Below, in pieces: positions 5,009 to 61,034 of a stretch of DNA of 64,000 nucleotides (position 1 is its first letter; each line of letters begins with the position of its first letter). Origin of the DNA: Malacoraja senta. Lineage: Eukaryota. The stretch is taken from NCBI GenBank assembly GCA_038087875.1, contig CM075991.1, forward strand, positions 11,472,001-11,536,000. Direction: 5' to 3'. The notes beneath the pieces were generated by a model. The model was not told the DNA's origin and ran no database searches. It saw only the letters and a list, made by a program, of their open reading frames with translations. The translations under genes were made by a program, and so were the position numbers.

Positions 5009-5080
5009 GAATAAACCTGCCAATGTTCTGTCTGTTACAAGCGTCTAACCTGTTGTTTTCCTCCCTGCGCCCACCTGAAG

Positions 5081-6131
5081 CTGCTGGCTGGCCTGGAAGC
5101 CGAGCCTGGGTGCTTTCTACGTGCCAGCAGGCTTCACCGTACTGGTCAGTTGGATCTACCTACTGGGTGCCGGCCTGCAGCTGGGCTGCCGACGGCGGGG
5201 CAAGGCCGATGCCGGGGGATTGCCGGAGCAGCCGGCGGTCAGCGGCGGCCAGGGCCCGGACTCGGCCTCGGTCAGCGGGCCCTCTCCGGCCACCGACATC
5301 GTGTATTCGCTGGAAGCGCGGCTGTGGGCACTGGCCGGAACTCAGCTGCTCTTCGTCGGCCTGTGGATCTGCGGGGCACTGTCAGTGTGGGGGACGCCGC
5401 CGTTGGCCGTCCTCTTCAGCTGCCTGTACGGGGTGGGGGCCGTGGCTCTGGGCCTCTTTGTGCTCATCCACCACTGCCTCCGGCGGCACGACGTGTGTGG
5501 GCCGTGGCGGGGCTGTGCCCGGCAGCCGGGGGCAGAGGCTGGCGGCTCCCCGGCCCCCCCTCCGGCCGGCCCGGGCCCCGAGGCTGGCGGCAGCCCCTTC
5601 TCGGCGGGCGGCCAGTGCAAGATGACCAACCTGCAGGCGGCGCTGAGCCAGGGAGACCGCGGCGCTGCCGCCAGGAGCCCGACTCCGTGCGTGGACAGCG
5701 AGGCGGAGGCCGAGGACAAGGCGCCGGCCTGCCGTGGCCACAGGACCCGGACTAAGCCGCCAGTGGACGGCAAACAGCAGCGGCTGAGGGCGCTGAGAGC
5801 CGCCGCCGCCGCCACCACCTCGGACGCGGCCTCGAGCGACACCGGCAGCCCGGCGGGCAGTGGGCGTCTGAGTAACGGCAGGCCGGGCCGGCACGCCAGC
5901 CACAGCCCGTCGGAGGGCAGCGACAGCAGCGGACAGGCCCCAGGCTCAGGCTCAGGCTCGGGCCCGAGGCCGGGCCTACAGGCCAGCGTCAGCCGGGACA
6001 GCCTGAAGCAGGCCGGTCCCCTGGAGAAGGAGGTGAAGCGGAGGTCCTACCCGCAGAACGGCGCTCAGAGGGCCGGCGAGACCGGAGCCACCATCAGCGC
6101 TGGTCTGTGGAAGAGCGAGACCACGGTGTAA
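5081..6131 (+). CDS. ADGRA2: ADGRA2 terminal coding exon: TM5-TM7 and cytoplasmic tail with PDZ-binding motif
   Basis: Acceptor cctgaag|C. Translates (Y)CWLAWKPSLGAFYVP...LFSCLYGVGAVALGLFVLIHHCLRRHDV...KRRSYP...GLWKSETTV*, with stop TAA at 6129-6131. KRRSYP and GLWKSETTV match the ADGRA2 C-terminus. Confidence 0.95.
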
Positions 6132-14275: not shown

Positions 14276-14668
14276 CAAAGATCCTATAGCAAGCAAGATA
14301 GTCCACTCGTCGAAAAAGACGTAGTACGGTCATGGGTAATTTTCGGCCCCATTTCCGTAACCGGCTTCCATCTCCGCACCAAAGATCCCATCACAGCGGA
14401 GCAAAGATAACTAGTGCGGGGACGGAAACCAGTTACGGAAACATCCTCGTAAAAATAAAAGTTCTTTGGTAAAAATCTTCTCATTTTCAGAATTTTAATT
14501 TATTAACACAAACTGTTCCCCCGCAACGTTGATTACACTGTGGGTCGGGTCGGGTTGGGTCACTGAAATGGATGAAAAAAAGGCCCACGTTCCGCTCCGT
14601 TGCGTACTACACATCAGCCCATTGCATTTAGCAAGAGTGGTCTATCTTGCTCCGCTAGAGGATCTTTG
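14276..14668. mobile_element. P-element-like non-autonomous DNA transposon (MITE)
   Basis: TIRs CAAAGATCCTATAGC..AGCAAGATAG / CTATCTTGCTCCGCTAGAGGATCTTTG with a perfect 8-bp TSD GTTTTAAT (14268-14275 and 14669-14676). Confidence 0.75.
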
Positions 14669-17411
14669 GTTTTAATCACTAGACTGATCAGTCAATGACA
14701 AAGAGGGTACACAAAAATGCTGGAGAAACTCAGCGGGTGCAGCAGCATCTAGGGAGCGAAGGAAATAGGTAACGTTTCGGGCCGAAACCCTTCCTCAGAC
14801 AAAGAGGTGTTGATGTTGGGTTGGAAACCCCCCTCTTACCTCAGTGGGACCTAGAGAGTTGATTTGAGGTCTGGATGGAACCAGGCTGCTGTTTGATGGG
14901 CCAGCCGTGGTGCCTGATCTCACCACCTTATCTCCAAGCAATCAGCTCACCTACTCTATCCATTTGTAGGCCCCCCTCGGTCATGACTGACCATGGGTGA
15001 TGCATCCTAGTTGTTGGCTGCTTGCTCCAACCCTTGGCTGGAGGAGCGCCACATGTGGCTGATGAGACCAATGCGGGAGTGGCAGTCTCTGTGGCAAAGG
15101 TCACATGTGTGTGTGTGTGTGGTCTCTGGTTTGTTGAAGTTGCCGCGCTCCTTTCTGCGCGCCCCGCGTTACTCCCGCTGCGTTCAACAGTTTCTCTTCC
15201 CCCATTTGGAGACGTTGGTTCAGGGTAACCTCTCCACCTCGTGCTGGACAGCTGCAAGGCTCTCCCAGGAATCCGACCCTGCCAGAACAATCTCCCCCCC
15301 ATCAGATAAAGTGCCAAATCCTCCCTGAATTGTGAGCAGGCCAGACCCCCCCCCCCTCTCACCCAGTGGCCCCCTCAATTGAGAGAAGGCAAAGTGACTG
15401 AGAAGCTTTGAAATCTCCCGTTGGTGTTGTTTATTGTGCAGTTGCAGAACGCAATCAATCGCTTAACTCGCTGACAGTATTTTGGCTGCATGTTTAGATC
15501 CAGAGTATTTTTTATGCTTTTGATATTCAGGTGCTTTATAAATTCAAAAGGATCATTTTGTCATGAAAAGCTATTTTAATAATAAATTATGGATACCAGC
15601 AATGGGTTTGCAAATCGTGTTTTCTTTGTTGATTTTGGCATGCATGTGTAATAAATAGAAATTATTCTGAAGGCGATATTGATCTGCATTGTCTGGGCAG
15701 GGGTGAGCTATCAGAATTGGTTTGGTTGCCTGAAAATAATTGTGGCAGAATTACCTGGACTTTGTACTACAAGTAAATGTCATTTGCTTTTCCCAGAAGA
15801 TCCCATGGCTTGGTTTGTTTAAGAAAGAATGGCAGATGTTGCCATTCTTGTGGTTTGGTTTGATTCAGTTAATGTCACGTGTATAAAGATTCATGCCCAT
15901 TTGACATTTCCATCCAGTAAAATCACACCGTACATGGTGTATCTGGGACAGTCCCACACCTCTGGTCAAGATCATGTAGAATGGCCGCGATTCGAGGCTT
16001 TATCAGTGTAGTTTAGTGATACAGCGCGGAAACAGGCCCTTCAGCCCGCGCCAACCAGCCAAGCCATCCCCGCACATTAACACTACCACACACACACACA
16101 CACACACACTAGGGACAATTTTACATTTACACAACACCAATTACCCTAAAACCTGTACTTCTTTGGTGTGTCGGAGGAAACCAAAGATCTTGGGGAAAAC
16201 CCAGGCAGGTCATGGGGAGAATGTACAAACTCTGTATAGACAGCACCTGTGGTCAGGATCGAACCCGGGTCTCTGGCGCTATAAGGCAATAGCTCTACCA
16301 CTGCGCCGCCCCTTATTGCTGCCAGTCAATAGACAACAGGTGCAGGAGTAGGCCATTCGGCCCTGCACTGACATGGGCTGCTGGCCCCAATTCATCTGGT
16401 GGTCAAAATCCAAACACCCAGGCACCCACCAAAGACCCTGGTGGGCAACCAGCTTCACTCCACTGTCCTACAGTCTTTCCAGCAAAGGCTTTGTATGTTT
16501 ACTGGGCCCAGGTGATGGTGTTTGGTGGATGAGAGATTTGCAAGCATCATTGGGGTGAAGATTCTGGTGGGCGTTGTAGCAAGTGGACAGTCTTGTCCAC
16601 CAGAGTCCTGGCCAAGTGCTGAGAGGGTCTGTGGGCCCCATTGGAGTTTAGCATCTGTAAATCATGGACCATGTGCCGTCCACCACCCCAGTCTGGTCTG
16701 TGTGAAACCAGCCATATTTTAGAAGTGAGCTCATCCATCTGTTGTTTCAGGGAGTATGACAAGTCGAAAATACAACGCCCCAACAACTCGTGAGACTGAT
16801 TCATACATTCCTGTCTCCGCACTTCTGCAGTTCGGAGGTTAGAGCCATTTGTATCTGCGGCCAATATTGGTGAAGAAGCTCCAAAGAAGAATGATACGTG
16901 GCCAAGACCGTGATCAAAGTGCTGAGAGAATTATAATAATAATAATAATAATCATTTTATTTACTGGCGCCTTTCTAAAACCCAAGGACACCTTACAATG
17001 CATAGAATCACAAAAAAAAAATAAAAAAAAAAATTAGAAGATAGACACAGAGTGCCGGAGTAACTCAGCAGGTCAGACAGCATCTCTGGAGAAAAGGAAT
17101 AGGTGACGTTTCAGGCCGAAACCCTTCTGAATTCTGAAGAAGAGTCTCCACCCCAAAACGTCACCCGTTCCTTCTCCCCAGCGATGCTGCCTGTCCCGCT
17201 GAGTTACTCCAGCTTTTTGTGTCTATCTTCGGTTTAAACCAGCATCTGCAGTTCCTTCCTACATTTTGTCTGAGGGAACGAGACATGGACGAGGAGTAAA
17301 TGGCTTGGAATAGTTCCAGAGGTTGGATTAGAGATGCAACACAACCCTGGCGAGGATCTGACGTCTGATGACTTGCTCCGTCTGCTGTTCACAGCCTAGA
17401 GCAAATGTGGC

Positions 17412-36592: not shown

Positions 36593-39478
36593 TGTAAAGA
36601 AGTTCCAACGACACACTGTTACTTTACTATCTTTATTCATACTGGAGCATTACACATTGCACTAGCTGTACGTGGTCTGTCACAGGAACTAGAGAGCGAT
36701 CTGTGGGTGGGGAGGTTGTAGTTATACTTGTGATATGGGGAGTGGTTAGTAGTGATGAGGTCACTATATTAAAGGCACATGCATATATCATCTACATCCT
36801 TCCCCTTGGAAACGACAGGCAAATACCATAGTGACAGGTCGACCACGGCTCATGCGCTGGGACGGTTAAACAAAATCGCCATAGCGGACAGGCGGTTTGA
36901 CAACACGTCCCGACCGGGTTCGCATCTCGCCACCCTCCCTTCCGGCAGGAAGAAGAGGCACCGATGGGGGCAGACGAACCGGAAAGGGGGAAACGGGAGG
37001 AGACGGAGGAGACCGCGGCACCAAAACCGGAGGTGATGCGGGATCAGGAGCGGGCAGAGCGCGGGCAGGCGAGCGAGGACTAGCCGGAGTAGGGTGGGAC
37101 GGAAGGAGTTGAGGTGGTGTAGACCGTTGCATGTTAGGAAGGACGGGCAGAGCATCGCCCGGACGCGGAAACTGCAGTGGGGGAGCAAAGGGATCCGCGG
37201 CAGGAGGACGCGGCTCGTTGACGAGCCGAAGGTGCTGGCGGGACCGTCGGTAAATGGTTCCCGCATGGTCGACGAGATAAGACCTGGGCGATCCCGCAGA
37301 GCCGACGACGGTAGCGAGCTTGGAGTGACCGGAAGGGGTCTGCATGCGGACAACTTGACCGGGGAAGAGGCACGGCAGTGGGTGGCAGGACCTGTCATGG
37401 GAACGCTTCTGGACATCGTGCCTGAAGGCAATGCGTTTCTGAACAGCAGCAGGCGTGAGGACAGACGGTATGAGGGAGCGCTGGGCCACAGGGAGCGGGA
37501 GTCTGGTAGCGCGAGACATGAGCCGCTGAGCAGGGGAGCCCATGGCAGAGTCGCGGGAGATGTTGCGGAGGTTGAGGAGGGCCAGATAGAAATCGGAGTT
37601 GGATAAACGACATTGTTCCAGCAGGTTCTTTGCACTGCGGACGGCGCGCTCGGCCAAACCGTTGCTTTGCGGGTACTCCGGGCTGCTGGTGAAATGGTGG
37701 AAATTCCATCTGGAAGCGAGAGCTTTAAACTCGGAGCTCGTGAACTGGCTGCCATTGTCCGACTGCAGGCTTGCCGGGGGGCCAAAAGTGCAAAAATGAT
37801 GGCATAACGTGTCGATGACGGCCGAAGAGGTTAGGGAATGCAGCCGGTCGACCTCGAACCAGCTGGAGTAGGGGTCAACGACAACCAGGAAGTGTTTGCC
37901 CCGCCACTCGAAAATGTCGACGGCATCTGCCATCCAGGGCAGTTCGGGCGCGGGCTGCTGCAGAAGCGGCTGGCGCTGCTGGTGGGGGGCGAGACTGTTG
38001 CAGGTGGAACACGAGGAGACCCTCTCCCGGATGTATTGGGCCATACCAGGCCAGTAGAACTGGCTCCGGGCGAGAGACACGGTGGCTTCGGCCCCAGGAT
38101 GTCCGCGGTGAGCGACCTGAAAATAGTGGTCGTGCAGCGCAGCGGGCACGACCACCTTGTGACCCTTCACCACCATGCCGTCGTGTAGTACGAGCTCATC
38201 ACGGACCAGGAAGTAGGGCACGGCGCCAGCCGGCAACGCGGAACGACGGTCGGGCCAGCCCCGCTGGATGAAGGCAGAAAGCTGTTGCAGGGCAGGGTCA
38301 TTGGCAGTGTGTTCAACCAGGGACTTCATCTGCTGTGAAGGGACGATGTTCACTTGGAGCACCATCAGATCAGACATCTCATAGGGGTGGCGATCGGTGG
38401 ACGTTAGCGGGGCGCGAGACAACGTGTCGGCCACGAACATGTCCTTGCCCTTACGATAAACCACGTTGAACGTGAAGCGCTGGAGCTGCAGCATCATGCG
38501 CTGCAGGCGTGATGAGGCAACATGGATCGACTTGTTGAGAATGGTGACAAGCGGCTGGTGGTCAGTTTCAATGGTGAAAGTGTTGCCCAGGACGTAGTCT
38601 TTGAATTTGGAGCAGGCAAACACCACGGCCAGTAGCTCCTTCTCGATCTGCGCGTAGTGCTGTTCGGTGGCGGTCATGGTGCGGGATGCGTAGGAGACAG
38701 GCAGCTGTAGGCCGTCATGGACCTGGAGACAGGCGGCACTGAGTCCGAACTGAGAGGCGTCGCAGGTGAGGACAATGGGACGCTGCAGGTCAAAAAACTT
38801 GAGTGTGGGGGTGCTGATTAGCTTGGATTTAAGGATGTCGAAGGCTTTCTGGTGGTGGGGGAACCAAACCCAGGACGTGTCCTTTTTTATCAAATCCCTC
38901 AGGGGAGCGCTGAGGTCGGGGATGAACTTCCCCAGGTAGTTCACCATGCCCAGGAAGCGTTGTAGGCCTGCCACATCAGTAGGAGAAGGCATCCCGGAAA
39001 TGGCAGACGTTTTTTGCGGGTCGGGTTTCAGCCCCTCGGCGGTGAATACATGTCCAACATAGGTGACCTCCGGGACGCGAAATCGGCACTTCTTGGGGTT
39101 CAGTTTCAAGTTGATTTTCCGGTCCCGGTCCAGGACCTGGCGGAGGTTGAAGTCGTGTTCGGCGATGTCCTTACCGTAAACGAGGAAATGAGAAGGTTGG
39201 GGAAACAAAAAACTGGGACAAAATTAAATGATAAACCGATAGACAGGAGGCGCAAGGTAAGAGGTATGACACCATGTAAAGAAGTTCTAACGACACATCA
39301 TTACTTTACTATCTTTATTCATACTGGAGCGTTACATATTGCACTAGCTGTACGTGGTCTGTCTCAGGAACTAGAGAGCGATCTGTGGGTGGGGAGGTTG
39401 TAGTTATACTTGTGATATGGGGAGTGGTTAGTAGTGATGAGGTCACTATATTAAAGGCACATGCATATATCATCTACA
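36593..39478 (-). mobile_element. Gypsy/Ty3 LTR retrotransposon, internally deleted
   Basis: 204-bp TG...CA LTRs at 36593-36796 and 39275-39478 with 5-bp TSD ATCTC. PBS-like TGGTGTCA next to the 5' LTR and PPT AAGGGGAAGGA before the 3' LTR. Confidence 0.95.
36866..39208 (-). CDS. Truncated Gypsy pol ORF (RT C-terminal half, RNase H, integrase), 780 aa open
   Basis: FLGMVNYL; RNase H CDAS...YAQIEKELLA...ETDHQPL; integrase HHCC (HRGH...CSTC) and DDE (AVDIF, SDNG, AERAV). Domain order RT-RH-IN indicates Gypsy. Confidence 0.9.
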   Translation of the reverse strand: MFPQPSHFLVYGKDIAEHDFNLRQVLDRDRKINLKLNPKKCRFRVPEVTYVGHVFTAEGLKPDPQKTSAISGMPSPTDVAGLQRFLGMVNYLGKFIPDLSAPLRDLIKKDTSWVWFPHHQKAFDILKSKLISTPTLKFFDLQRPIVLTCDASQFGLSAACLQVHDGLQLPVSYASRTMTATEQHYAQIEKELLAVVFACSKFKDYVLGNTFTIETDHQPLVTILNKSIHVASSRLQRMMLQLQRFTFNVVYRKGKDMFVADTLSRAPLTSTDRHPYEMSDLMVLQVNIVPSQQMKSLVEHTANDPALQQLSAFIQRGWPDRRSALPAGAVPYFLVRDELVLHDGMVVKGHKVVVPAALHDHYFQVAHRGHPGAEATVSLARSQFYWPGMAQYIRERVSSCSTCNSLAPHQQRQPLLQQPAPELPWMADAVDIFEWRGKHFLVVVDPYSSWFEVDRLHSLTSSAVIDTLCHHFCTFGPPASLQSDNGSQFTSSEFKALASRWNFHHFTSSPEYPQSNGLAERAVRSAKNLLEQCRLSNSDFYLALLNLRNISRDSAMGSPAQRLMSRATRLPLPVAQRSLIPSVLTPAAVQKRIAFRHDVQKRSHDRSCHPLPCLFPGQVVRMQTPSGHSKLATVVGSAGSPRSYLVDHAGTIYRRSRQHLRLVNEPRPPAADPFAPPLQFPRPGDALPVLPNMQRSTPPQLLPSHPTPASPRSPARALPAPDPASPPVLVPRSPPSPPVSPFPVRLPPSVPLLPAGREGGEMRTRSGRVVKPPVRYGDFV

Positions 39479-44678: not shown

Positions 44679-47600
44679 AATATTTTAACCTTATATCCAG
44701 ATTTACTTTGCTATTTTGTTTACTGTTAATATTATTTTACAATATGTGTTTATTACTGAGAATGGCTGGTTTGAGCAGCATTGATTCTGTGGGTCCATAT
44801 AATGAATGCTGTGATTCTGAAATATTTGTGCCAGCCCAAAATGTTGACTTTCTATTTCCCTCCACAGATGCTGCCTGATGTGCCGAGTTCCTCCAGCACT
44901 TTGAGGTCTGCTTAAGATCCCAGCATCTATCTCTAGTTCCTTCTGGCTCATCTGAACTGTTGGCTTCCTCCACCGCCGCTTCCACCCACAAGGTGGCGAG
45001 GTTGTTGCTCCAATCTTCTGGCAATGCTCCTGCAGCTAAGGTCGACCACAACTTTTCTGCCAGTTTTTTATCAATTGAAATATTTGTCCACTGTGGCTGC
45101 GAATCTGCGAAATTTCAAGTCTTGATTCGTGACAATGTCCCTGCTTATCGCTGAAAACCCCTCCGGTGTTTTTCTGACCTCATTCGGGCTCTTTAGACAC
45201 TATTGAGACACTACAGTCTGGAATTCTTGTGTGGGAAGGAACTGCAGATGCTGCTTTACACCAAAGATAGACACAAAATGCTGGAGCAACTCAGCGGGAC
45301 AGGCAGCATCTCTGGAGAGAAGGAACGGGCGACGTTTCGGGTCGAGTCCCATCTTTCCTGATCATCTGTGCCTTTTCCAGACAGTTCCAGACATTATTTG
45401 ACGGCATTCCCTGGAGCTGTAGGAATCATTTGTTGCAATAATGGCAACATGGACTAGGCAACATTTTTGGAACAGTGTAATGCCTAAATAGAACACAGAC
45501 TAGTCAAATGGTTGAACCTCGCAGCATTGCATGTTTAATGCAACCTCACATGTTTAATCGATAATGTTTTATTAATAGGTACACAAAATTGCTGGAGAAA
45601 CTCAGCGGGTGCAGCAGCATCTATGGAGCGAAGGAAATAGGCAACGTTTCGGGCCGAAACCCTTCTTCAGACTGACAAATGATTCCTACAGCTTCAGGGG
45701 ATGCCATCAAGTAATGTCTGGAACTGTCTGGAAAAGGCACAGATGATCAGATGACTCGACCCGAAACGTTGCCCGTTCCTTCTCTCCAGAGATGCTGCCT
45801 GTCCCGCTGAGTTACTCCAGCATTTTGTGTCTATCTTTGGTGTAAAGCAGCATCTGCAGTTCCTTCCCACATAAGAATTCCAGACTGTAGTGCCTCAATA
45901 GCTAAAGAGCGCGAATGAGGTCAGAAAAACACTGGAGGGGTTTTCAGCGAAAAGGAGGGACATTGTCACGAAGCAAGATTAATGTTTTATTATTAATGTT
46001 TAACGTTTTGTGTCATTCCTGACTGTCACTGGATGTCATGTTGTCACTTGTGGGCGGAGCACCAAGGCAAATTCCTTGTATGTGAATACTTGGCCAATAA
46101 ACTTATTCATTCATTCGTTGGCAAAGAGACAACATGGAGTAGGATTTTGCCCATTGTCACCCCTTCATTTCAGTCCAGCAGCTTCTTGTGTAGACAGTGA
46201 CTGAGTTGCTTTGTTTGTCAGTGGCCCACACCTCCATAACCCCATGGGGCCTTAACCCCACACCTTCCCCAGTTGGGCATTAGTCCAGAAATCGAGGAAA
46301 AGGAAGATGAGCAGACTTCAAGATAGCCCGAAAAATGCTGGCGTAACTCAGCGGGACAGGCAGCATCTCTGGAGAGAAGGAATGGTTGACGTTTCGGGTC
46401 AGGACCCTTCTTCAAACCTGAAACCGTCACCCATTCCTTCTCTCCAGAGATGCTGCCCGTCGCGCTGAGTGACTCCGGCATTGTGTGTCTATCTCCGGCT
46501 TAAACCAACATCTGCCGTTCCTTCCTGCACAGAGAAGACTTCAATCTCTGTAACTCTTTACAGATCTAAGGATTTTCCGAAGCTCTCCAGTGGCAGTGAG
46601 GTGGACATTGGAGTGGAAAAATAATGGATTGGATTTAGGTAGACATAAAATGCTGGAGTAACTCAGCGGGTGAGGCAGCATCTACAGAGTGAAGGAATAA
46701 GGTGACGTTTCAGGTCTGCTCTGGGCAAGGGACTCTGTGCATCTACCTGATCTATTCCTCTCATGATTCCCCCTAGGTATCCTCTTGTTTTTAGTGCTAG
46801 TGTATTCCCATCTTGGCCAGGACCCTCTCTGATGAGATGTAGATAATCCGGTGGTCTCCCCCAACCTCCAATGATCAGGGCAAAGGACTAGGATCTGAAG
46901 AGCAGCACCCCATCAAAGCAGGGGTGGAAGTTGCAACCTTTCACGGCCGGGAAGGTGGGTGTAGGAATGAACTGCAGATGCAGGTTTAAACTGAAGATAG
47001 ACAAAAAGTGCTGGAGTAACTCAGCGGGACAGGCAGCGTCTCTGGAGAGAAGGAATGGGTGACGTTTCGGGTCGAGGCTGGTCTGAAGAATGGTCTCGAC
47101 CCGAAACGTCACCCATTCCTTCTCTCCAGAGATGCTGCCTGTCCCGCTGAGTTACTCCAGCATTTTGTGTCTGTCTTCTGGAGGAGGCTGTTGTTAGGAA
47201 TGTGTCGCCATGGATAGTTTGGGCCAGATCAAGACCTGATGGAATTGTGTAAAAATTCTGGCAGTGGCCAACAAATTGAACAATGTAGGTGTGAAGAAGG
47301 GTTTCAATAGACAATAGACAATAGACAATAGACAATAGACAATAGGTGCAGGAGTAGGCCATTTGGCCCTTCGAGCCAGCACCGCCATTCAATGTGATCA
47401 TGGCTGATCATCCCCAATCAGTACCCCGTTCCTGCCTTCTCCCCATACCCCCTGACTCCGCTATCTTTAAGAGCCCTATCTAGCTCTCTCTTGAAAGCAT
47501 CCAGAGAACCTGCCTCCACCGCCCTCTGAGGCAGAGAATTCCACAGACTCACCACTCTGTGAGAAAAAGTGTTTCCTCGTCTCCGTTCTAAATGGCTTCC

Positions 47601-49648
47601 TCCTTATTCTTAAACCGTGGCCCCTGGTTCTGGACTCCCCCAACATCGGGAACATGTTTCCTGCCTCTGGCTTGTCCAAACCCTTAACAGTCTTATATGT
47701 TTCAATGAGAAACCCTCTCATCCTTCTAACGAAACTCTTCTTCAGACTAATTATCTATAGAGCGAAGGAAATAGGCAACGTTTCGGGCCGAAACCCTCGG
47801 GTTTCGGCCCGAAACGTTGCCTATTTCCTTCGCTCCATAGATGCTGCCTCACCCACTGAGTTTCTCCAGCATTTTTGTCTACCTAGGCAACTTTCACTTC
47901 ATTCAAGGGAGATAACGATGAATGTGTAGGAAGGAACTGCAGATGCTGGTTTACACCGAAGATAGACACAAAAAGCTGGAGTAACTCAGCGGGACAGGCA
48001 GCATCTGTGGAGAGAAGGAATGGGTGACGTTTCGGGTCGAGAGTTATGTCCAACTGGTGTTAGCTCAGTAACACCCATTTCACAACCCTACACAGCAAAG
48101 ATCCCGTAGCAAGGACGCTATAGGATCTTTGCAACACAGAGTGAGAAACCGCTGACGTTAATCAAAATATCCCTGAAAGCAGCCCTTAGTTTATTCAGTC
48201 TGAAGAAGGGTTGCCTATTTCCTTCGCTCCATAGATGCTGCCACACGCGCTGAGTTTCTCCAGCATTTTTGTCTGAAGAAGGGTTTCGGCCCGAAACGTT
48301 GCCTATTTCCTTCGCTCCCTAGATTGAAGATTCAAGTGAGTTCATTGTCATGTGTCCCTGATAGGACAATGAAATTCTTGCTTTGCTTCAGCACACAGAA
48401 CATAGTAGGCATTGACTGCAAAACACATCAGTGTGTCCATTTACCATATACCATATACCACTGCCATCATAGATGCTGCCGCACCCGCTGAGTTTCTCCA
48501 GCATTTTTGTCCACTTTAGTTTATTCCTTGGTACACAAAAATGCTGGAGAAACTCAGCGGGTGCAGCAGCATCTATGGAGCAAAGGAAATAGGCAACGTT
48601 TCGGGCCGAAACCCTTCTTCAGTTTATTCCTTGATGGTTTGAAGACAAAGCTCCCCCCACCCCCCCCCCCCCCCCGGCCCACTTTACCGTGCCCCAGTCT
48701 CTCGAGCTAGTCGAAAGTAATTGTCAGGATTCACTTTGATTTTTTTTATTCTTTACCTTCTGTAAAGGTCACCTCTCTATTCATGGGTGAGAGCATTTCT
48801 TCAAAGCTCCCTGGTCCCAAATGGTTAATAGTTCCCTGTTAACTCCCATAATCTGCCCCTGATTGTTGCCCACACCGGTACCTGGATACATTGTCCGGCC
48901 GGCCGCAGACTAGCCAAGAGTTTTGTGCTTTCACACATCAAAGCCCCGTGGAGCTCCGTGTGAGGGTTGGGATCAGAGAGGAGGGGGGGGGGTGGGCGGG
49001 GGGGTGGGGTGGGGGGGGGGGGTGAAGAAAGTGTCTGCGAAGGTTGTAATCATTGCTCTCACAATCAGAAGGTTAATTAGAAATTCTGTGTTTACTGTGA
49101 ATGTGCAGGTCCCAGCGTGGGGTCTCTGCCAGATACCTGTGGGAAAGGTAACACCTCTAAATTCAATCACTCCTGGCCATGAATGGTGACTGCCCATTCT
49201 CCTCACACAATTGCATCCCTTTTATGCCTCTCCACTTGTCATTTGGCCCTGACAAGGTGTAAAGTGCCATTTGCCCGAGCGTTTGAAGGCTCCCCCCCCC
49301 CCCTCCCTGCTTTCTCCCTCGCCTCAATTGAACCAAGGTGTCACCATCCATTAAATTGGGGATTTCCAGGGATTAAAAAGCAAATTGTTTCTTTTTTTTT
49401 TGAGCTGGGACGGGATAAATGTTTCCTTTGCTGAATAAGCTCCATTATTTACGGAGCCCAAGGTAGGCCTCAGCTGCCCAAATCAAGTTTGCCAATACAT
49501 GGCCAGGTCTGTTCCGCTGTTAAACCTTGTTATTGGGAACTGCAGAGGAAGAAACAAAAAAGTTCTAGAAGATTCCGCCTCCAATGAGGGTGGGCAGGAA
49601 ATCATTTGACTTCAAGGGCTTCATTTGTCTAAGAGGCTGAGATAGTTA

Positions 49649-49832
49649 AGGGTCTGTCCCACTTGGCAATTTTTTCGGCGACAGCCGGCATCATTAACTG
49701 ACATATCACGGCAACGAAAAATTCGTGGCGTGATGACGTATTGCCGAGCGGTGTTTTTTCAAGTGTCGCAACATTTTTTCTGTGGGCGACACTGATATGA
49801 CGGCGAAAAATTCGCCAAGTGGGACAGGCCCT
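49649..49832. mobile_element. PIF/Harbinger-like MITE
   Basis: TIRs AGGGTCTGTCCCACTTGGC...GCCAAGTGGGACAGGCCCT with TTA target-site duplication. Confidence 0.72.
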
Positions 49833-50826
49833 TTACTGAATTTAAGCTGGTCAAGAGAGGCCATTTGGTTCCACTGTAGATAGACACAAAATGCTGGAGT
49901 AACTCAGCAGGACAGGCAGCATCTCTGGAGAGAAGGAACGGGTGACGTCTCTGAAAGAGGGTCTCGACCCGAAACACCACCCGTTCCTTCTCTCCAGAGA
50001 TGCTGCCTGTCCCGCTGAGTTACTCCAGCATTTTGTGTCGACCTTCGGTTCAAACCGGCGACTGCAGCTCCTTCCTGCACAGACTCCACTGGTTGTTGAG
50101 TTAGTTATTGTAAAGCAGCAGCTTCAAGCTTAAAAGAGGTTGTTGGAGTTAATAATGCCAAGCTGAAACTGCAATGGAAGTAGAATCAAGAGTAAGCTTC
50201 AAGCAGAAAGAGCAGAAATGTTTGTAAGAAAATTGATAAAACACTAGGGGGAAAAGGCAAGGTGAAAGACATGCGATTGTGAACACAGCGATTAAATAAA
50301 TATTGGTTCAATCCTCCTGGATATTGTCCTGCTCAGCGTCTGATACATTCTAGTGCATCCCTTTATCGACCCAATGTGTTCCTCTGCATCTCTTGTCTAT
50401 ATAATATATATATCAGGCAGATACAGGAGTGTGAAAACGCACACCTCCAGATTCAGGGACAGTTTCTTCCCAGCTGTTATCAGGCAACTGAACCATCCTA
50501 CTACAACCAGAGAGCGGTCCTGAACTACCATCTACCTCATTGGTGACCCTCAGACTATCCTTGATCAGACTTTGCTGGCTTTACCTTGCATTAAACGTTA
50601 TTCCCTTATCATGTATCTATACACTGTAAATTATAGATTTATTATAGACAATTATAATCATGTATTGTCTTTCCACTGACTGGATAGCATGCAACAAAAG
50701 CTTTTCACTGTACCTCGGTACAGGTGACAATAAACTGATATATATATATAAGATAAATACAAAGTACTGGAGTAACTCAGCGGGACAGGCAGCATCTCTG
50801 GAGAGAAGGAATGGGTGACGTTTCAG

Positions 50827-51026
50827 NNNNNNNNNNNNNNNNNNNNNNNNNNNNNNNNNNNNNNNNNNNNNNNNNNNNNNNNNNNNNNNNNNNNNNNNNN
50901 NNNNNNNNNNNNNNNNNNNNNNNNNNNNNNNNNNNNNNNNNNNNNNNNNNNNNNNNNNNNNNNNNNNNNNNNNNNNNNNNNNNNNNNNNNNNNNNNNNNN
51001 NNNNNNNNNNNNNNNNNNNNNNNNNN
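50827..51026. other. Assembly gap (200 N)
   Basis: Run of N; both sides carry the same Penelope-terminus sequence. Confidence 0.95.
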
Positions 51027-51236
51027 AACTCAGCGGGACAGGCAGCATCTCTGGAGAGAAGGAATGGGTGGCGTTTCAGGTCGAGACCCTTCTTCACTCT
51101 TCAGAACTTCAGATGCTGGTTTAAACCCCAAAGATAAAACAAAGTTAGGTTTGAAGAAAGTTCATCACCTGAGACATCACCCATTAAATGCAATAGACAA
51201 TAGACAATAGGTGCAGGAGTAGGCCATTCGGCCCTT

Positions 51237-51717
51237 CCACACATTCATCTCCTCCCGCCTAGATTACTGCAACTCCCTTTACACTGGCATCAGCCAATCT
51301 TCCCTGTCCCGCCTGCAACTGGTCCAAAACGCCGCAGCGAGACTCCTGACGGGCACCCGAAAAAGGGACCACATCACCCCGATCCTGGCCTCTCTCCACT
51401 GACTCCCTGTGCGGTGCCGTATAAACTTCAAGATCCTCCTCCATGTCTACAAAGCCCTCAATGGGCTTGCCCCCACCTACATAAAAAGTCATCTCACCCA
51501 CCACTCCACCTCCAGGCCCCTCAGATCGGCCGACTTGGGGTTGCTGAATATCCCACGGTCTAGGCATAAGCTCAGGGGCGACCGCGCCTTTGTGGTTGCA
51601 GCTCCTAGACTGTGGAACAGCACCCCCTTCCCATCAGAACTGTCCCCTCCATCGACTCCTTTAAGTCAAGACTAAAGTTGTTTTTAAATGTGCTATATAA
51701 CTAAATGTGACTTGACT
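51237..51717 (+). mobile_element. L2 LINE 3' fragment nested in a CR1 3' UTR
   Basis: RLDYCNSL...LQLVQNAAARLLTG...DHITPILASLH*LPV..RINFKILL...RAFVVAAPRLWNS. It splits the CR1 tail between GGCCCTTC and GAGCCAGC. Confidence 0.85.
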
Positions 51718-53496
51718 TCGAGCCAGCGCCGCCATTCAATGTGATCATGGCTGATCATCCCCTATCAGTACCCCGTTCCTGCCTTCTCCCATATCCCGTG
51801 ACTCCGCTATCTTTAAGAGCCCTATCTAGCTCTCTCTTGAAAGTATCCAGAGAACCTGCCTCCACCGCCCTCTGAGGCAGAGAATTCCACAGACTCACCA
51901 CTCTCTGTGAGAAAAAGTGTTTCCTCGTCTCCAAATGGCTTATTCTTAAACTGTGTGGCCCCTGGTTCTGGACTCCCCCAACATCGGGAACATGTTTCCT
52001 GCCTCTAGTGTGTCCAAGCCCTTAACAATCTTATATGTTTCAATGAGATACCCTCTCATCCTTCTAAACTCCAGAGTGTACAAGCCCAGCCGCTCCATTC
52101 TCTCAGCATATGACAGTCCCGCCATCCGGGAATTAACCTTGTAAACCTACGCTGCACTCCCTCAATAGCAAGATAGTTGGGTAAATGCAAGGTTTTTAGT
52201 TTTGGAAGTACAGCATGGAAACAGGCCCTTCGGCCCACCGAGTCCATGCCGACCATCAGTCCCCTATTCACACTAGTTCTACATTATCCCACTTTCTCAT
52301 CTAGTCCCTACACATTGGGGGGAATTTACAGATGGCCAATTAACCTACAAAACCGCACATCTTTGGGATGTGGGAGGAAACCGGAGCAAACCCGTGTGGT
52401 CACAGGGAGAACGTGCAAACTCCACACAGATAGTACCTTAGGTCAGGATTGAACGCTGGTCTCTGGCACTGCGAGGCTGCGGCTCTACCAGCTGGACGTT
52501 TTCAAGAGAGTTAGATTTAGCTCTTTGGACTAAAGGAATCAAGGGAAATGGGGAGAAAAAGCCAGAACGGGTACTGATTTTAGATGATCAGCCATGAACA
52601 CATCGAATGACGGTGCTGGCTCGAAGGGCCGAATGGCCTACCCCTGCACCTATCGTTCTGTCTCTATGCACCAATGTGCATCCTGTGCATAGTAATGTCA
52701 TGAACAAGCACTGAGACACATTGTCTGTTGTGTCAGGCATGTGTGAGCATTTACCTGGATGAATAACTGATTGCACCCTGATCTTCAACATTGCCGTACA
52801 ATAGAAGTCCCCCTGTTTTAAAACTACTCCCGTTAGATTAGTCTTGTTGCTCGATCTGCTTTCATGTTAATTTGGGTCAGTCGGTTAGTTCAAAGCCTGA
52901 TGTGGCTGCTTGCCTACCATTTGTTGGTCTCCATCATAGACTCAGATAGGAAGAAGGCCATTCGGCCCATTGTGTCCCTGCTGGCTCTTCGAAGAAGCCA
53001 AATTTTTAGTCTGAAGAAGGGTCTCGACCCGAAACGTCACCTATTCCTTCTCTCCAGAGATGCTGTCTGACCCGCTGAGTTACTCCAGCTTTTTGTCTTC
53101 TAATCTGCTATCACTCCCACTCCCCCTACTAACGAGTGCAAGGTGTGTATTCAACTCCTTTTGATTGTTCCCTCTGAACTTGGTTCCATTGTCCTGGCAG
53201 ACTCTATATTCCATGTAATCACAACCCATCAGTGGTATTTACGTTTAGCATTGGCTCACGAATACAAGGTATCACTGCATCAGTCTGAGGAAGGGTTTCG
53301 GCCCGAAACGTTGCCTATTTCCTTCGCTCCATAGATGCTGCCTCACCCGCTGAGTTTCTCCAGCACTTTTGTCTGTCACTGCATTTTGACTCATTTGTTT
53401 AATCAGCCTGCTTTTTCTGTGGCAACTTTTAGTTTATTGAATGTTATTAACAGTTTCAAAAGAGACATACTCCATGTTTAACCCTTCAGTCTGAAG

Positions 53497-53899
53497 CAAA
53501 GATCCTACAGCGAGCAAGATAGACCACTCAACAAAAAAGACCTAGTACGGTCATGGGCAGATTCGCGGGTAATTTTCAGCCCCATTTCCGTAACCGGCTT
53601 CCGTCTCCGCACCAAAGATCCTATAGCGGAGCAAAGATAACTAGTGCGGAGACGGAAGCCGGTTACGGAAACATTCTCGTAAAATTAAAAGTTATTTGGG
53701 AAAAATCTTCTCCTCATTTTGAGAATTTTAATTTATTAACACAAACTGTTCCCCCGCAACGTTGATGACACTGCGAGTCGGGTCGGGTCGGGTTACGGAA
53801 ATGGATGAAAAAAAGGCCCATGTTCCGCTCCGTTGCATACTACACGTCAGCCCATTGCATTTAGCAGGAGTGGTCTATCTTGCTGCTATAGGATCTTTG
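53497..53899. mobile_element. P-element-like MITE, second copy, inserted in a Penelope terminus
   Basis: Same TIRs and interior as 14276-14668, with a perfect 8-bp TSD GTCTGAAG. Confidence 0.75.
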
Positions 53900-56065
53900 G
53901 TCTGAAGAAGGGTCTCGACCCGAAACGTCACCTATTCCTTCTCTCTATAGATGCTGCCTCGCCCGCTGAGTTTCTCCAGCATTTTTGTTTAACCTTCCAT
54001 GTTTAACTGTGCATCTTACTTATTTTGGCTCTGGTTCTGCGGTGGTCAAATTTACAGCGGGCAACTTTGTAACCTTGTTGAACTTCTGTAGCCCATATGA
54101 ATCAGATGCTCCCACAGAGTTACAGAGTGGGGTGTTGCAAGATCGACACAAGATTTGTTTTATTCTTGATCTTAAACCATGTATTGTGCTTTTGCATGTA
54201 ATTTATTGTGCATTTGTATGCAGTTTATTCCATGTAATGTCTAAGAAGGAACTGCAGATGCTGGAAAAATCGAAGGTAGACAAAAATGCTGGAGAAACTC
54301 AGCGGGTGAGCCAACACTTCATGCTGCCTCACCCGCTGAGTTTCTCCAGCATTTTTGTCTACCTATGTAATGTCTTGTCTTTTATCTGGATCTTGAGTCT
54401 GTAATAAAACTCAGCATTGAAGGGCTTGGATGCATTTCCAAATCAACACCGCGTTCTCGAGTGATACAGCATGGAAACAGGCCCTTCGGACCAACTTGCC
54501 CACACCGGCCAACATGTCCCAGCTACACTAGTCCCACCTGCCCGCGTTTGGCCCATATCCCTCCAAACCTGTCCTATCCATGTACCTGTCTAACTGTTTC
54601 TTAAACGTTGGGATAGTCCCAGCCTCAACTACCTCCTCTGGCACAAAAAGCTTGAGGAACTCAGCGGGACAGGCAGCATCTCTGGAGGGAAGGAATGGGT
54701 GACCCTTCAAGGGTCTCGACCCAAAACGTCACCCATTTCTTCTCTCCAGAGATGCTGCCTGTCCCGCTGAGTTACTCCAGCTTTTTGTGTCTATCTTCGG
54801 TTTAAACCAGCATCTGCAGTTCCCTTCTGACATACCTCCTCTGGCAGCTTGTTCCATACACCCACCACCCTTTGTGTGGAAAGGATACTTGGATTACTTG
54901 CAGGAGAACTTGTAGATAGATGGTTGTGGTCCTATGCACCGGCTGGTTTTATTTAAGCTGACGATGTACCTCTGATAATGCACCACTTCTGTCCAAGTCA
55001 CAGTGAATGATGGGACTTCCCTAGAGTGCCACTTGTACCTTGGACTTGACACACCTCTGAGCACCTTTTTGAATTGCGAGCAATCACTAAGGTCGTAAGT
55101 GATAGGAGCAAAATTAGCCCATTCAGCCCATCAAGTCTACTCCACCATTCAATCATGGCTGATCTATCTCTCCCTCCTAACCCCATTCTCCTGCCTTCTC
55201 CCCATAACCCCTGACACCCGTACTGATCAAGAATCTATCTATCTCTGCCTTGAAAATATCCATTGACTTGGCCTCCACAGCCTTCTGTGGCAAAGAATTC
55301 CACAGATTCACAACCCTCTGACTGAAGAAATTCCTCCTCATCTCCTTCCTAATGGAACGTCCTTTAATCCAATGAGTTGGATGATCAGCCATGATCATAT
55401 TGAATGGCGGTGCAGGCTCGAAGGGCCGAATGGCCTACTCCTGCAGCTATTGTCTATGTTTCTATGTCTTTTAATGCTGAGGCTTTGACCTCTAGTCCTA
55501 GACTCTCCCACTAGTGGAAACATCCTCTCCACATCCATTCTATCCAAACCTTTCACCAGTTGTACTTTGCCCAGCATACCATACTGTATACAGAAATATT
55601 TAAATGATTGTGGACCCATCCGAGATAACCCGTGAGTGTGCGAGAGAGACTGTGTGAAAATTATGTTTAAGAAAGAACTGCAGATGCTGGAAAAATCAAA
55701 GGTAGACAAAAAGGCTGGAGAAACTCAGTGGGTGAGGCAGCATCTATGGAGCGAAGGAAAGTGCCTCGACCCAAAATGTCAACCATATCTTCTGTCCAGA
55801 GATGTTGCCTGTCCCGCTGAGTTACTCCAGCTTTTTGCGTCCACCTTCGGTTTAAACCAGCATCTGCAGTCTGAAGAAGGGTCTCGACCCGAAACGTCAC
55901 CTATTCCTTCGCTCCATAGATGCTGCCTCACCCGCTGAGTTTCTCCAGCATTTTTGTCTACCGTGGAAATATATAATCGGGGTGCATCTTGCAAACATTC
56001 TAAGCATGAATTTACACAATGGCGCAGTCTTTGACGTGTACAACCTGGAACATATTGAACAGCCG

Positions 56066-56220: not shown

Positions 56221-56514
56221 CTAGGTCCGGTGACGCTTCGGAAGTCGTGTCCTCCGGGACCTTTTGGTGACGGGGTAATTTATAAACTCAAAGTGCCTTT
56301 GCCGGTCGCGGTTGGGGAAGAGCGGCTCCCCTTTGAACAGTCTTTTCATGAAGTGGACTTCTCTCTGGTTCTGCCTGGTCTTGGCTGCTTTCCGGGGTTG
56401 CCCTTTCCTGGTGAAGGCCATGTACCACCCTTCATACTTGGTGTTCCTCAGTGCTGTGTAGTTATTTTCCAGCAATATTTCCGTGAAAATGCAGTCCTTG
56501 CCCTTGCCGACCAG
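56221..56514 (-). CDS. FGF17: FGF17 terminal coding exon
   Basis: Acceptor tttttgcag|CTG. Translates [42 protein letters not shown]...[16 protein letters not shown]...FEFINYP...*, with stop TAG at 56223-56221. Confidence 0.92.
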
Positions 56515-59299: not shown

Positions 59300-59472
59300 G
59301 AGGGTGGCGAGGGGGGATGGGATGGCGAGGTTGGGTTTGTGCGATCTTATGGGATAGACAGAACAAGTGTTGGTACCCAAGGGGTGGGTGATGGTGGTGA
59401 GACCAAGAGAGACTGGGATTGGGATACACGCGCTGTGTCTCTAAAACCACAGCGTTGACCGGCATTCCTCAC

Positions 59473-59650
59473 CATATTTGCTGCCATCTTCAGCGGTCGC
59501 GTTGATTCTCTTGCCGAGGATCTGGACGTGCTTTCCGCTGGTGCGACTGTACAGCTGGTAAACGCGGATGTGTCTTCTGCTCAGCTGGTCGGTGTTCCGG
59601 GCGTGATCTCTGACGTGCTGATTAAAATTAGGAGACGATTGATTCTCCCC
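59473..59650 (-). CDS. FGF17: FGF17 (FGF8 subfamily) coding exon, 178 nt
   Basis: Acceptor aaaag|GGG and donor G|gtgagg. Translates [59 protein letters not shown]. The GENxxSPNFNQ start is FGF17-like. Confidence 0.9.
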
Positions 59651-61034
59651 CTTTTTAGTTTGCAAAAGGAGAAATAAAATCAATTTGCTTTTACTGTGCC
59701 GGAGCCCGGCGATCGGGCGCGGATCGCACCGCGTGCCCCAGCGCCGGTCTCTCTCCGTCCCCCGCCACCACCGCATCACCTCGTGGGTTCCAGCGCAGGT
59801 TGGGTCTATTCCTGAACCCCAACCTCGCCATCCCACCCCTTACCACCCTCACCCACCACAACCACACACCCTTAACATCAACCATCCTATCAGTCTCGAC
59901 CCGAAACGTTGCCCATTCCTTCTCTCCTGAGATGTTGCCTCACCCGCTGAGTTACTCCAGCGTTCTGTGTCTACCTTTGGTTTAAACCCCTGAAGGATCT
60001 GCAGTTATTTCTTACACAGCTCTATTTCTGTACCTGTTCTGTCCCCGTTATCCAATTCTTCATCCAGATTCAGCTACATTTGACCTACATTCACTTTAAA
60101 CCAGCATCTGCAGTTCCTTCCTACACACTAACATCAGCTTTGTTGTTATCTTCTCCCAGCTAACAATTCTACAATTTCCTTGAACTCCATTCCCTTTGTT
60201 CTGTTTTCACACCTTGCACATCCCTATCTATGTATCCCCAGTCTGAAGAATGGTCTCGACCTGAAACGTCACCCATTTTCCTTCTCTGCAGAGATGCTGC
60301 CTGTCCCGCTGAGTTACTCCAGCATTTGGTGTCTATTAGTTTAGAGAAACAGGCCCTTCGACCCACCGGCTCCGCGCCGACCAGCGATCCCCGCACGCTA
60401 ACACTATCCTGCACACACTAGGGACAATTTTACCTTGATACCAAGTCAATCAACCTACAAACCTGCACGTCTTTGGAGTGTGTGAGGAAACCAAAGATCT
60501 CAGAGAAAACCCACGCGGGTCACGGGGAGAGCGTACAAACTCCGCACAGACAGCACCCGTAGTCGGGATCGAACCCGGGTCTCCGGCGCTGTGAGGCAGC
60601 AACTCTACCGCTGCACCACCTTGCCACCCATAGATAAGCAATAGAGACAAACAGACGGAAATAGGTCCTTTTGCCCACTGAGTCCGAGCTGACCCTCGTA
60701 CGCTAACCTGACAATAATCCCATTTCATTCTCCTCACATTCCTATCAACATCATTGAGGTACCGCCCCTATAGTCTTTTTTTCCCCTCGAGAAACAAGGA
60801 ACTGCAGATTCTGCTTTACAAAAAAAAGACCCAAATTGCTGGAGTAACTCAGTGGATCAGGCAGCACACTGGACAACATGGATAGACAGGTCTGAAACCC
60901 CCCCCCCCCAACCCAAAAGTCACCTATTCATGTTCTCCAGAGATGCTGCCTGACCCACTGAGCAACTCCAACACTTTGTGGCATTTTCCCATTTTTTTCT
61001 CATTAGTCGAGAATAATCTGGTGTTCGTTGTTGT

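What the first reader, a model, noticed from the sequence alone, without database searches (positions are those of the whole stretch)
48088..48139. 36-bp double-ended remnant resembling a P-element excision footprint
Seen: CTACACAG | CAAAGATCCCGTAGC AAGGA CGCTATAGGATCTTTG | CAACACAG. That is about 15 and 16 bp of the two termini of the MITE family at 14276 and 53497, joined by a 5-nt filler and flanked by a 7/8 matching 8-bp TSD. Established: Drosophila P transposase cuts with 17-nt staggered ends, so end-joined donor sites keep about 15-17 bp of each TIR, whereas hAT excision does not leave TIR ends. Inference: a fossil of P-type excision chemistry in a vertebrate germline.
Basis: partly seen in the sequence, partly recalled or inferred. 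Interest (0 to 1): 0.7.

Follow-up and report, generated by a model that had tools for sequence, protein, structure and literature searches.

The report
Fossil P-type transposon excision scar
This 36-base stretch holds the two outer tips of a small jumping element joined together between duplicated host bases, and is most likely the old repair scar left when a P-family transposon was cut out of a vertebrate germ-line chromosome; similar scars in other organisms hint that this transposon lineage may cut deeper into its own ends than the 17 bases known from fruit flies.

Summary
Observation confirmed: 48096-48131 joins 15-18 and 16 bp of the termini of a ~400-bp MITE (copies at 14276, 53497; exact 8-bp TSDs) between 7/8-matching 8-mers. 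A probable orthologue in another organism keeps the same 36-bp remnant with the TSD mismatch restored, and 31-38-bp remnants occur at other loci in 4 of 4 runs laid. A metagenome scan gave 51 matches with the same termini; 21 have 7-, 8- or 9-bp TSDs and nearly all have different junctions. The 7/8/9-bp TSDs, 33-34-bp TIRs and likeness to the 1360/hoppel TIR favour the P superfamily; no transposase was found, so hAT or another superfamily is not excluded. Best reading: an end-joined excision footprint of a 1360-like P-superfamily MITE, possibly from a deeper (~24-nt) stagger. The genome-wide length test could not be run: no assembly is held.

The parts
48088..48095 (+). [quoted passage not shown]
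48096..48110 (+). left arm: outer 15 bp of the MITE TIR (2 mismatches at 48105-48106; extends to 48113, 18 bp, against the left end of the 14276 copy)
   Evidence: the probable orthologue has the TIR-consensus letters at 48105-48106
48111..48115 (+). junction: 5-nt (or 2-nt) filler not explained by a simple join of the two ends
   Evidence: no difference listed here for the probable orthologue
48116..48131 (-). right arm: outer 16 bp of the MITE TIR
   Evidence: 16/16 to the internal TIR copy at 53613; 15/16 to the ends at 53497 and 14668
48132..48139 (+). right copy of the TSD (CAACACAG, one mismatch; the mismatch is absent in the probable orthologue)
48042..48197 (.). host stretch holding the remnant, single-copy within the window, between abundant short repeats
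14276..14668 (+). MITE copy A, 393 bp, 33-34-bp TIRs, exact 8-bp TSD at 14268-14275 and 14669-14676
53497..53899 (+). MITE copy B, 403 bp, 32-33-bp TIRs, exact 8-bp TSD at 53489-53496 and 53900-53907
53582..53595 (.). 14-bp subterminal inverted repeat of MITE B, left copy (partner 53791-53804; in MITE A 14349-14362 and 14558-14571)
53585..53671 (.). internal 28-bp perfect inverted repeat of MITE B enclosing a third TIR-like copy (53613-53639); same structure in MITE A at 14352-14441

Best explanation
The 36 bp are the joined outer tips of a ~400-bp MITE family inside a target-site duplication, most likely left when a P-superfamily (1360/hoppel-like) transposase cut a copy out in the germ line and the host likely end-joined the two TIR-derived overhangs with a short filler. 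Shown: the arms, the TSD, the parent family, recurrence at other loci and conservation in a second organism. Inferred: (1) a MITE or autonomous relative once sat here; (2) the transposase cut one strand at the element end and the other inside the TIR, leaving TIR overhangs on the donor, as Drosophila P does at 17 nt; (3) polymerase-theta-type end joining trimmed the overhangs and added 2-5 nt; (4) in this lineage the inner cut may lie deeper than 17 nt, near 24 nt, because arms in relatives reach but do not pass 24-25 bp. The scar has no subterminal sites and is predicted to be immobile and without function.
For: Parent family with exact 8-bp TSDs. Probable orthologue keeps the remnant with the TSD mismatch absent. 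Remnants of 31, 33, 36 and 38 bp in 21 of the 22 records listed besides the locus's own contig, in 4 of 4 runs, many with unrelated flanks. Metagenome scan: 51 matches; TSD within 1 mismatch of 8 bp in 11, 7 bp in 9, 9 bp (exact) in 1; shuffled flank pairs give a mean of 0.08 (8 bp) and 0.14 (7 bp). P-superfamily TSDs are 8 (P), 7 (1360, Galileo) and 8-9 (repleta P, BuT5) (PMC3698922); hAT has 10-25-bp TIRs and 8-bp TSDs (PMC3942097), while this TIR is 33-34 bp with a 14-bp subterminal IR. MITE ends match the 1360 TIR at 19-20 of 31 positions with at most one gap; 40-488 of 20000 random ends with the first five letters fixed score as well. In a 12-locus subfamily, 11 distinct junction types (1-5-bp microhomology, 1-4-nt filler, one TIR-templated 12-nt insert; two loci share one type) and no arm beyond 24-25 bp; random breakpoints would give this with p about 1.7e-4 for the 11 TSD-bearing loci. 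Same junction classes as Drosophila P donor repair (PMC2895639 Table 1). hAT and MULE form hairpins on the flank, not TIR overhangs (PMC5499845).
Against: No transposase found (0 P-transposase domains in 146 window ORFs and 69 locus ORFs), so the superfamily rests on DNA features; the TSD consensus (GTCTAGAC-like) and the first five bases also fit hAT (recalled). The 1360 comparison was chosen after the fact and is only moderately significant. No full element or empty site was seen at the orthologous position (no joints). The laid runs can only show lengths near 36 bp. The 24-25-bp cap could be the TIR boundary of that subfamily, whose full TIR is unknown, and the reference arm was itself 24 nt long; six other loci (L002, L005, L016, L022, L027, L044) keep 10-15 unexplained middle bases that could be longer arms. 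30 of 51 metagenome matches have no recognisable 7-9-bp TSD. A multi-copy 33-bp remnant in two laid organisms has the same TSD as this locus, which ascertainment may or may not explain.
Confidence: 0.65

Rival explanations
1. Transposase-independent loop-out: the two TIRs pair in single-stranded DNA and replication slippage or hairpin processing deletes the interior between short repeats inside the stem, leaving TIR tips and both TSDs (like the nearly precise excision of bacterial Tn10, recalled). The arm cap would then be the stem length.
For: The MITE folds into a strong stem-loop (z -10.4). Several remnants are perfect palindromes joined at microhomologies inside the TIR (22, 30, 36, 46 bp). 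The cap at 24-25 bp may equal an unknown TIR length.
Against: The window's remnant and several relatives (L012, L025, L031, L029, L007) carry fillers or templated inserts, which point to break repair rather than slippage (PMC3814204 passages). In the window's family the arms seen (13-20 bp) stop well inside a 33-34-bp TIR, though only near-36-bp remnants could be seen.
Confidence: 0.13
2. Abortive gap repair or random internal deletion: after excision by any cut-and-paste transposase, or a chance break inside the element, both ends are recopied or kept for a random length and joined; this is simply the short tail of a broad distribution.
For: Abortive gap repair is the accepted source of deleted Ac, P, Tc1 and Mutator copies (PMC3814204). 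Lengths in relatives fill the whole 22-52-bp window scanned. Arms over 17 bp need either resynthesis or a deeper cut.
Against: No arm beyond 24-25 bp in 11 TSD-bearing loci of one subfamily although totals up to 52 bp were allowed (p about 1.7e-4), and 7 of 24 arms reach 23-24 bp. The window holds 2 full copies, 1 remnant and no intermediate.
Confidence: 0.1
3. The family is not P but hAT or an uncharacterised 8-bp-TSD superfamily, and the remnant arose by that family's own (unknown) chemistry or by gap repair.
For: 8-bp TSDs with T at position 2 and A at position 7 in 3 of 3 window sites also fit hAT (recalled); no transposase in hand.
Against: 7-, 8- and 9-bp TSDs with the same termini; TIR longer than the 10-25 bp given for hAT; likeness to the 1360 TIR; hAT hairpins form on the flank.
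Confidence: 0.08
4. A mobile or passively copied mini-element (MADE1-like TIR pair, or a cassette carried by another repeat) inserted here as a ready-made 33-36-bp unit.
For: A 33-bp remnant with the same TSD is multi-copy in runs X1 and X4 (summed depth about 1450 against about 35 for the single-copy record in X4).
Against: Junctions differ between TSD-bearing loci in relatives; the window's junction differs from the 33-bp class by three bases of length; flanks beyond the TSD do not resemble the multi-copy class (by eye, table 7); the remnant lacks half of the TIR and the subterminal IR.
Confidence: 0.04

Closest known systems
Drosophila melanogaster P-element donor-site end-joining products (PMC2895639 Table 1; PMC7776569)
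   Same: Both TIR tips kept inside an intact 8-bp TSD; junctions with short microhomology, blunt joins or short and templated insertions; ~31-34-bp TIR with a subterminal inverted repeat about 100 bp in.
   Different: Natural, old and shared by two organisms, in a vertebrate; TIR sequence unlike D. melanogaster P (3-4 of 17 ungapped); arms in relatives exceed the 17-nt limit (18-20 bp in laid organisms, up to 24-25 bp in metagenome loci).
1360/hoppel/ProtoP, P superfamily (TIR in PMC13643785; 7-bp TSD in PMC3698922)
   Same: TIR length (31 vs 33-34 bp) and sequence: 17-18 of the first 23 bases, 19-20 of 31; relatives with these termini include 7-bp-TSD families.
   Different: The window's family makes 8-bp TSDs; no transposase was found to place it in the clade; I found no cleavage offset for 1360 in the papers read.
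Zebrafish Pdre elements and THAP9 (PMC10983969)
   Same: P-like elements once mobile in a vertebrate, 8-bp TSDs, subterminal inverted repeats, deleted copies.
   Different: Pdre2 has a 13-bp TIR unlike this one (4-5 of 13 ungapped); the text reports larger flanking deletions after zfTHAP9 excision in cells, and the parts read report no natural TIR-tip footprints.
P-MITEs of Anopheles gambiae and BuT5 (PMC1562414; PMC3698922)
   Same: Non-coding MITEs of a few hundred bp to 1 kb with P-type ends and 8-(9-)bp TSDs.
   Different: Their autonomous partners are known; the passages read describe no excision remnants.
MADE1 and other microhomology-derived TIR-only miniatures (PMC3814204)
   Same: Two TIR ends joined by end joining with a short filler.
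   Different: Those became amplified families; here only half of the TIR is kept and junctions differ locus by locus.

Membership tests
P superfamily | transposase with THAP, GTP-binding insertion and RNase H domains | tested here: inconclusive
   no such domain in 146 window ORFs or 69 locus ORFs; the element is non-coding and no genome is held
P superfamily | 7-9-bp target-site duplication | tested here: met
   8 bp in 3 of 3 window sites; 7, 8 and 9 bp in 21 of 51 metagenome matches; reference PMC3698922
P superfamily | TIR of about 27-32 bp with subterminal inverted repeats | tested here: met
   33-34-bp TIR and 14-bp subterminal IR; reference PMC3698922, PMC7776569
P superfamily | TIR sequence related to a known member | tested here: inconclusive
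   1360 TIR: 19-20 of 31, empirical p 0.002-0.024, comparator chosen after the fact
Drosophila-type P excision footprint | both TIR tips retained inside an intact TSD | tested here: met
Drosophila-type P excision footprint | no arm longer than 17 nt | tested here: not met
   the window's remnant fits (15+5+16) or breaks it (18+2+16); the 33-bp class needs at least 18; 10 of 12 loci of one related subfamily need more than 17
Drosophila-type P excision footprint | junctions with microhomology or short/templated insertions, different at each site | tested here: met
   against PMC2895639 Table 1
Drosophila-type P excision footprint | a full element formerly at the site | tested here: inconclusive
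   one probable orthologue carries the remnant; no full element or empty site among 4 runs
Drosophila-type P excision footprint | staggered cleavage by the transposase, GTP-dependent | not testable with these tools
   needs biochemistry
hAT superfamily | 8-bp TSD | tested here: met
   reference PMC3942097
hAT superfamily | short TIR of 10-25 bp | tested here: not met
   33-34 bp against PMC3942097
hAT superfamily | hAT transposase | tested here: inconclusive
   no hAT domain among the ORFs scanned; element is non-coding

The most novel reading that the evidence does not exclude
A widespread 1360-like P-superfamily lineage, once active in a vertebrate germ line and in other animals, cleaves its non-transferred strand about 24 nt inside the TIR rather than 17 nt, and its natural excision scars record both the cleavage offset and germ-line polymerase-theta end joining, so that the stagger of an extinct transposase can be read from genome sequence alone.
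Probability: 0.35. Interest if true: 0.7.

Novelty: new variant of a known kind. Interest (0 to 1): 0.45.

Why it matters
The 17-nt staggered cut is the oddest feature of P transposition, and the papers read here document it for the Drosophila enzyme only (PMC7776569, PMC10983969). Natural TIR-tip scars would show that P-superfamily cut-and-paste with a long stagger worked in a vertebrate germ line, give a genome-wide record of how those breaks were repaired, and let the cut position be inferred from the cap on arm length. A cap near 24 nt would mean the offset varies within the superfamily, a direct and testable prediction for 1360-like transposases. The single remnant itself is most likely neutral junk.

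Tried and rejected
Records behind 45 metagenome loci could not be searched further. Viral contigs: MITE-end pattern 0 matches; shorter end pattern 7 matches, all single hits in gene-dense contigs with no partner end, taken as chance; remnant pattern 1 match, not examined. Genome contigs: 2 matches, single hits in bacterial genes or gene-dense DNA, taken as chance. Plasmids: no match to the MITE. Rfam: no match in 47000-54500. Pfam on 146 window ORFs and 69 locus ORFs: no DNA-transposase domain. Earlier findings of this scan: nothing for this genome or sequence; 8 unrelated prokaryotic or viral MITE notes. Runs X1 and X2 gave no contig of the orthologous flank, which proves nothing. The automatic arm-length comparison between loci read through into the partner arm for 11 of 32 loci and was replaced, for one subfamily only, by a fixed 24-nt reference. 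Dropped before the subfamily count: 8 loci of a telomere-repeat palindrome family, loci in phage or microbial genes (L010, L046, L047), and the other subfamilies, whose consensus ends were too uncertain. Paper searches for prior reports of natural P-type footprints in vertebrates or of this TIR listed none by title or abstract start; the library lacks most subscription papers and Repbase reports, so this is weak. The idea that the TSD pattern alone names the superfamily was rejected: it fits both P (PMC2577343) and hAT (recalled).

Full report
OBSERVATION. The structure is in the sequence as described: 48096-48131 is a 36-bp pair of facing arms between CTACACAG (48088-48095) and CAACACAG (48132-48139). 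The arms are the outer ends of a non-coding element present twice in the window, at 14276-14668 (393 bp, exact TSD GTTTTAAT) and 53497-53899 (403 bp, exact TSD GTCTGAAG), 88% identical. That element has 33-34-bp TIRs, a 14-bp subterminal inverted repeat 86 bp from the left and 96 bp from the right end, and an internal 28-bp hairpin around a third TIR-like copy. The remnant parses as 15+5+16, or 18+2+16 against the left end of the 14276 copy. 300 shuffles of the window gave no facing pair of such arms. The remnant lies in a 156-bp stretch that is single-copy in the window, about 8 kb beyond the stop codon of an FGF8/17/18-family gene, so the host is very probably a vertebrate and the site probably intergenic. 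That it is a skate or ray is my recollection from the abundant short repeats and was not tested.

RELATED GENOMES. No assembly is held. Of 21 runs listed I laid 4, from 4 coded organisms, on 48042-48197 at 80% likeness (contigs only; 24 records laid, 22 listed). Record 9 (run X15) is the locus itself, identical over 150 bp, and may be the window's source. Record 15 (run X4) spans 132 bp without gaps and with 17 mismatches at a depth like the run's other single-copy records: a probable orthologue. Decomposing the depth columns shows that it has T at 48133, so that the TSD mismatch is absent, the TIR-consensus letters at 48105-48106, changes at 48116 and 48118, and no listed change in 48107-48115. 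The remnant is therefore older than the split of two organisms that differ by about 13% here. The other 20 listed records cover only the remnant and a few flanking bases: implied lengths are 31 bp (1 record), 33 (11), 36 (7) and 38 (1), in all 4 runs, with unrelated loose ends for the 36-bp records shown. This shows recurrence, but only lengths near 36 bp can be laid, so it is no length spectrum. The gap positions show that the 33-bp class joins 18-20 bp of one end to 13-15 bp of the other over a 2-bp microhomology (inferred from the tables, the record sequences were not shown). Part of this class is multi-copy in X1 and X4 and has the same TSD as the window's locus; beyond the TSD the flanks listed do not resemble the window's (by eye). 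Ascertainment favours matching flanks, but this is not fully explained. No joint, empty site or full element was seen at the locus.

OTHER ORGANISMS WITH THE SAME TERMINI. A scan of metagenome contigs for the outer 11 bases of both ends within 52 bp gave 51 loci, in 38 flank clusters; the same pattern gave 1 match in viral contigs. The loci share nothing with the window's MITE beyond 17-18 terminal bases. Most are gene-poor, and one has a fragment of a eukaryotic phosphomannomutase, so I infer host-animal DNA; I did not establish the hosts. Flanking direct repeats: 8 bp exact in 7 loci and with one mismatch in 4; 7 bp exact in 3 and with one mismatch in 6 (two of these are one locus, two are probably chance); 9 bp exact in 1; 30 of 51 have none. 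Shuffled flank pairs give means of 0.08 and 0.14. In one subfamily (12 loci, 11 with a TSD, from three contig sets) the junctions are 1-5-bp microhomologies (8), 1-4-nt fillers (3) and one 12-nt insert copied from the TIR; two loci share one junction type. A second pair (L007, L015) also agrees out to 24-25 bp. Against a general cap: six loci of other subfamilies keep 10-15 unexplained middle bases, and the full TIR of these families is unknown, so the cap could be the TIR boundary.

SUPERFAMILY. No transposase was found. The TSD consensus of 14 sites is GTCTAGAC-like, near the P motif core GTCCGGAC (PMC2577343, passages) but also like hAT targets (recalled). What favours P: TSDs of 7, 8 and 9 bp around one terminal motif, the range given for 1360, Galileo, P and BuT5 (PMC3698922 and PMC4168063, passages); a TIR longer than the 10-25 bp given for hAT (PMC3942097, passages) and like the 27-32 bp of insect P elements; a subterminal IR about 100 bp in, as in Drosophila P (PMC7776569, passages and section 6); and likeness to the 31-bp 1360/hoppel TIR printed in PMC13643785 (figure legend): 17-18 of the first 23 and 19-20 of 31 bases with at most one gap, against 3-4 of 17 for D. 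melanogaster P and 4-5 of 13 for zebrafish Pdre2, ungapped. With the first five letters fixed, 40-488 of 20000 random ends score as well. The comparator was chosen after the fact. I put P-superfamily membership at about 0.8.

MECHANISM. Established: Drosophila P transposase makes a 17-nt staggered cut and leaves 17-nt 3' TIR tails on the donor; end joining gives products with up to 17 bp of each end, microhomology, blunt or inserted junctions and intact TSDs (PMC2895639, one results section with Table 1 and passages). hAT, Transib and MULE form hairpins on the flanking DNA (PMC5499845, passages). Inferred: a member of this family sat at 48096, was cut out with TIR overhangs left behind, and the overhangs were trimmed and joined with a 2-5-nt filler in the germ line (confidence 0.65). 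Arms of 18-20 bp in the laid organisms and a cap at 24-25 bp in relatives suggest a deeper inner cut in this lineage (about 0.35); the alternative for long arms is brief resynthesis from the sister chromatid. Rivals: transposase-independent loop-out of the stem-loop (0.13; the MITE folds strongly, but fillers argue for a break, PMC3814204 passages); abortive gap repair or random deletion (0.10); a non-P superfamily (0.08); a ready-made mini-element (0.04).

COMPARISON AND NOVELTY. It works like a P-element excision footprint. It is not shown to be a member of the 17-nt Drosophila type, since that limit fails in relatives. P-like elements once mobile in a vertebrate are known (zebrafish Pdre; PMC10983969, first two of seven parts, passages and supplement text read; the junction figures could not be seen). 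Searches for natural P-type TIR-tip footprints in vertebrate genomes or for this TIR (listings only) showed none, but the library lacks most subscription papers and Repbase. PMC5753468 (passages) gave no TSD or terminus data of use. Verdict: a real, old, most likely neutral remnant; a new variant of a known kind; interest 0.45, rising to 0.7 if the deeper cut is confirmed.

Noticed in passing
window 53585-53671 and 14352-14441: Both MITE copies carry an internal 28-bp inverted repeat whose loop is a third copy of the first ~27 bases of the TIR; it could act as an alternative end or record a nested origin.
   Followed up: partly
L011, L024, L026, L030, L038, L043, L048, L051 (around the match): A different repeat has the same outer motif but a variable number of telomere-type TAACCC units between the arms, sits inside longer inverted arms and has no TSD at the core; possibly telomerase-type fill-in or a palindromic element with a telomeric centre.
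   Followed up: partly
runs X1 and X4, records 1-4 and 16-20 (window 48086-48139): A 33-bp remnant with the same TSD as this locus is multi-copy (roughly 40-fold the single-copy depth in X4), apparently carried by another repeat; its relation to this locus is unexplained.
   Followed up: partly
L005, L009, L017, L049: One 51-bp remnant occurs in four contigs with shared flanks, i.e. duplicated after it formed.
   Followed up: no
window 53484-53496 and 53900-53907: MITE B sits in a short palindrome within one of the window's abundant short repeats.
   Followed up: no
window 56221-56514 (minus strand) and about 59444-59839: Exons of an FGF8/17/18-family gene; the remnant and MITE B lie downstream of its stop codon.
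   Followed up: partly
window 5079-6131 (plus strand): A 350-aa open frame ending in ETTV, without a Pfam hit; it looks like the last exon of an adhesion-GPCR gene (recalled, untested).
   Followed up: no
window 36866-39223 (minus strand): A 785-aa open frame with RNase H and integrase domains of an LTR retrotransposon.
   Followed up: no
window 49652-49832: A ~180-bp element with terminal inverted repeats (seen in the printout), probably another MITE family.
   Followed up: no
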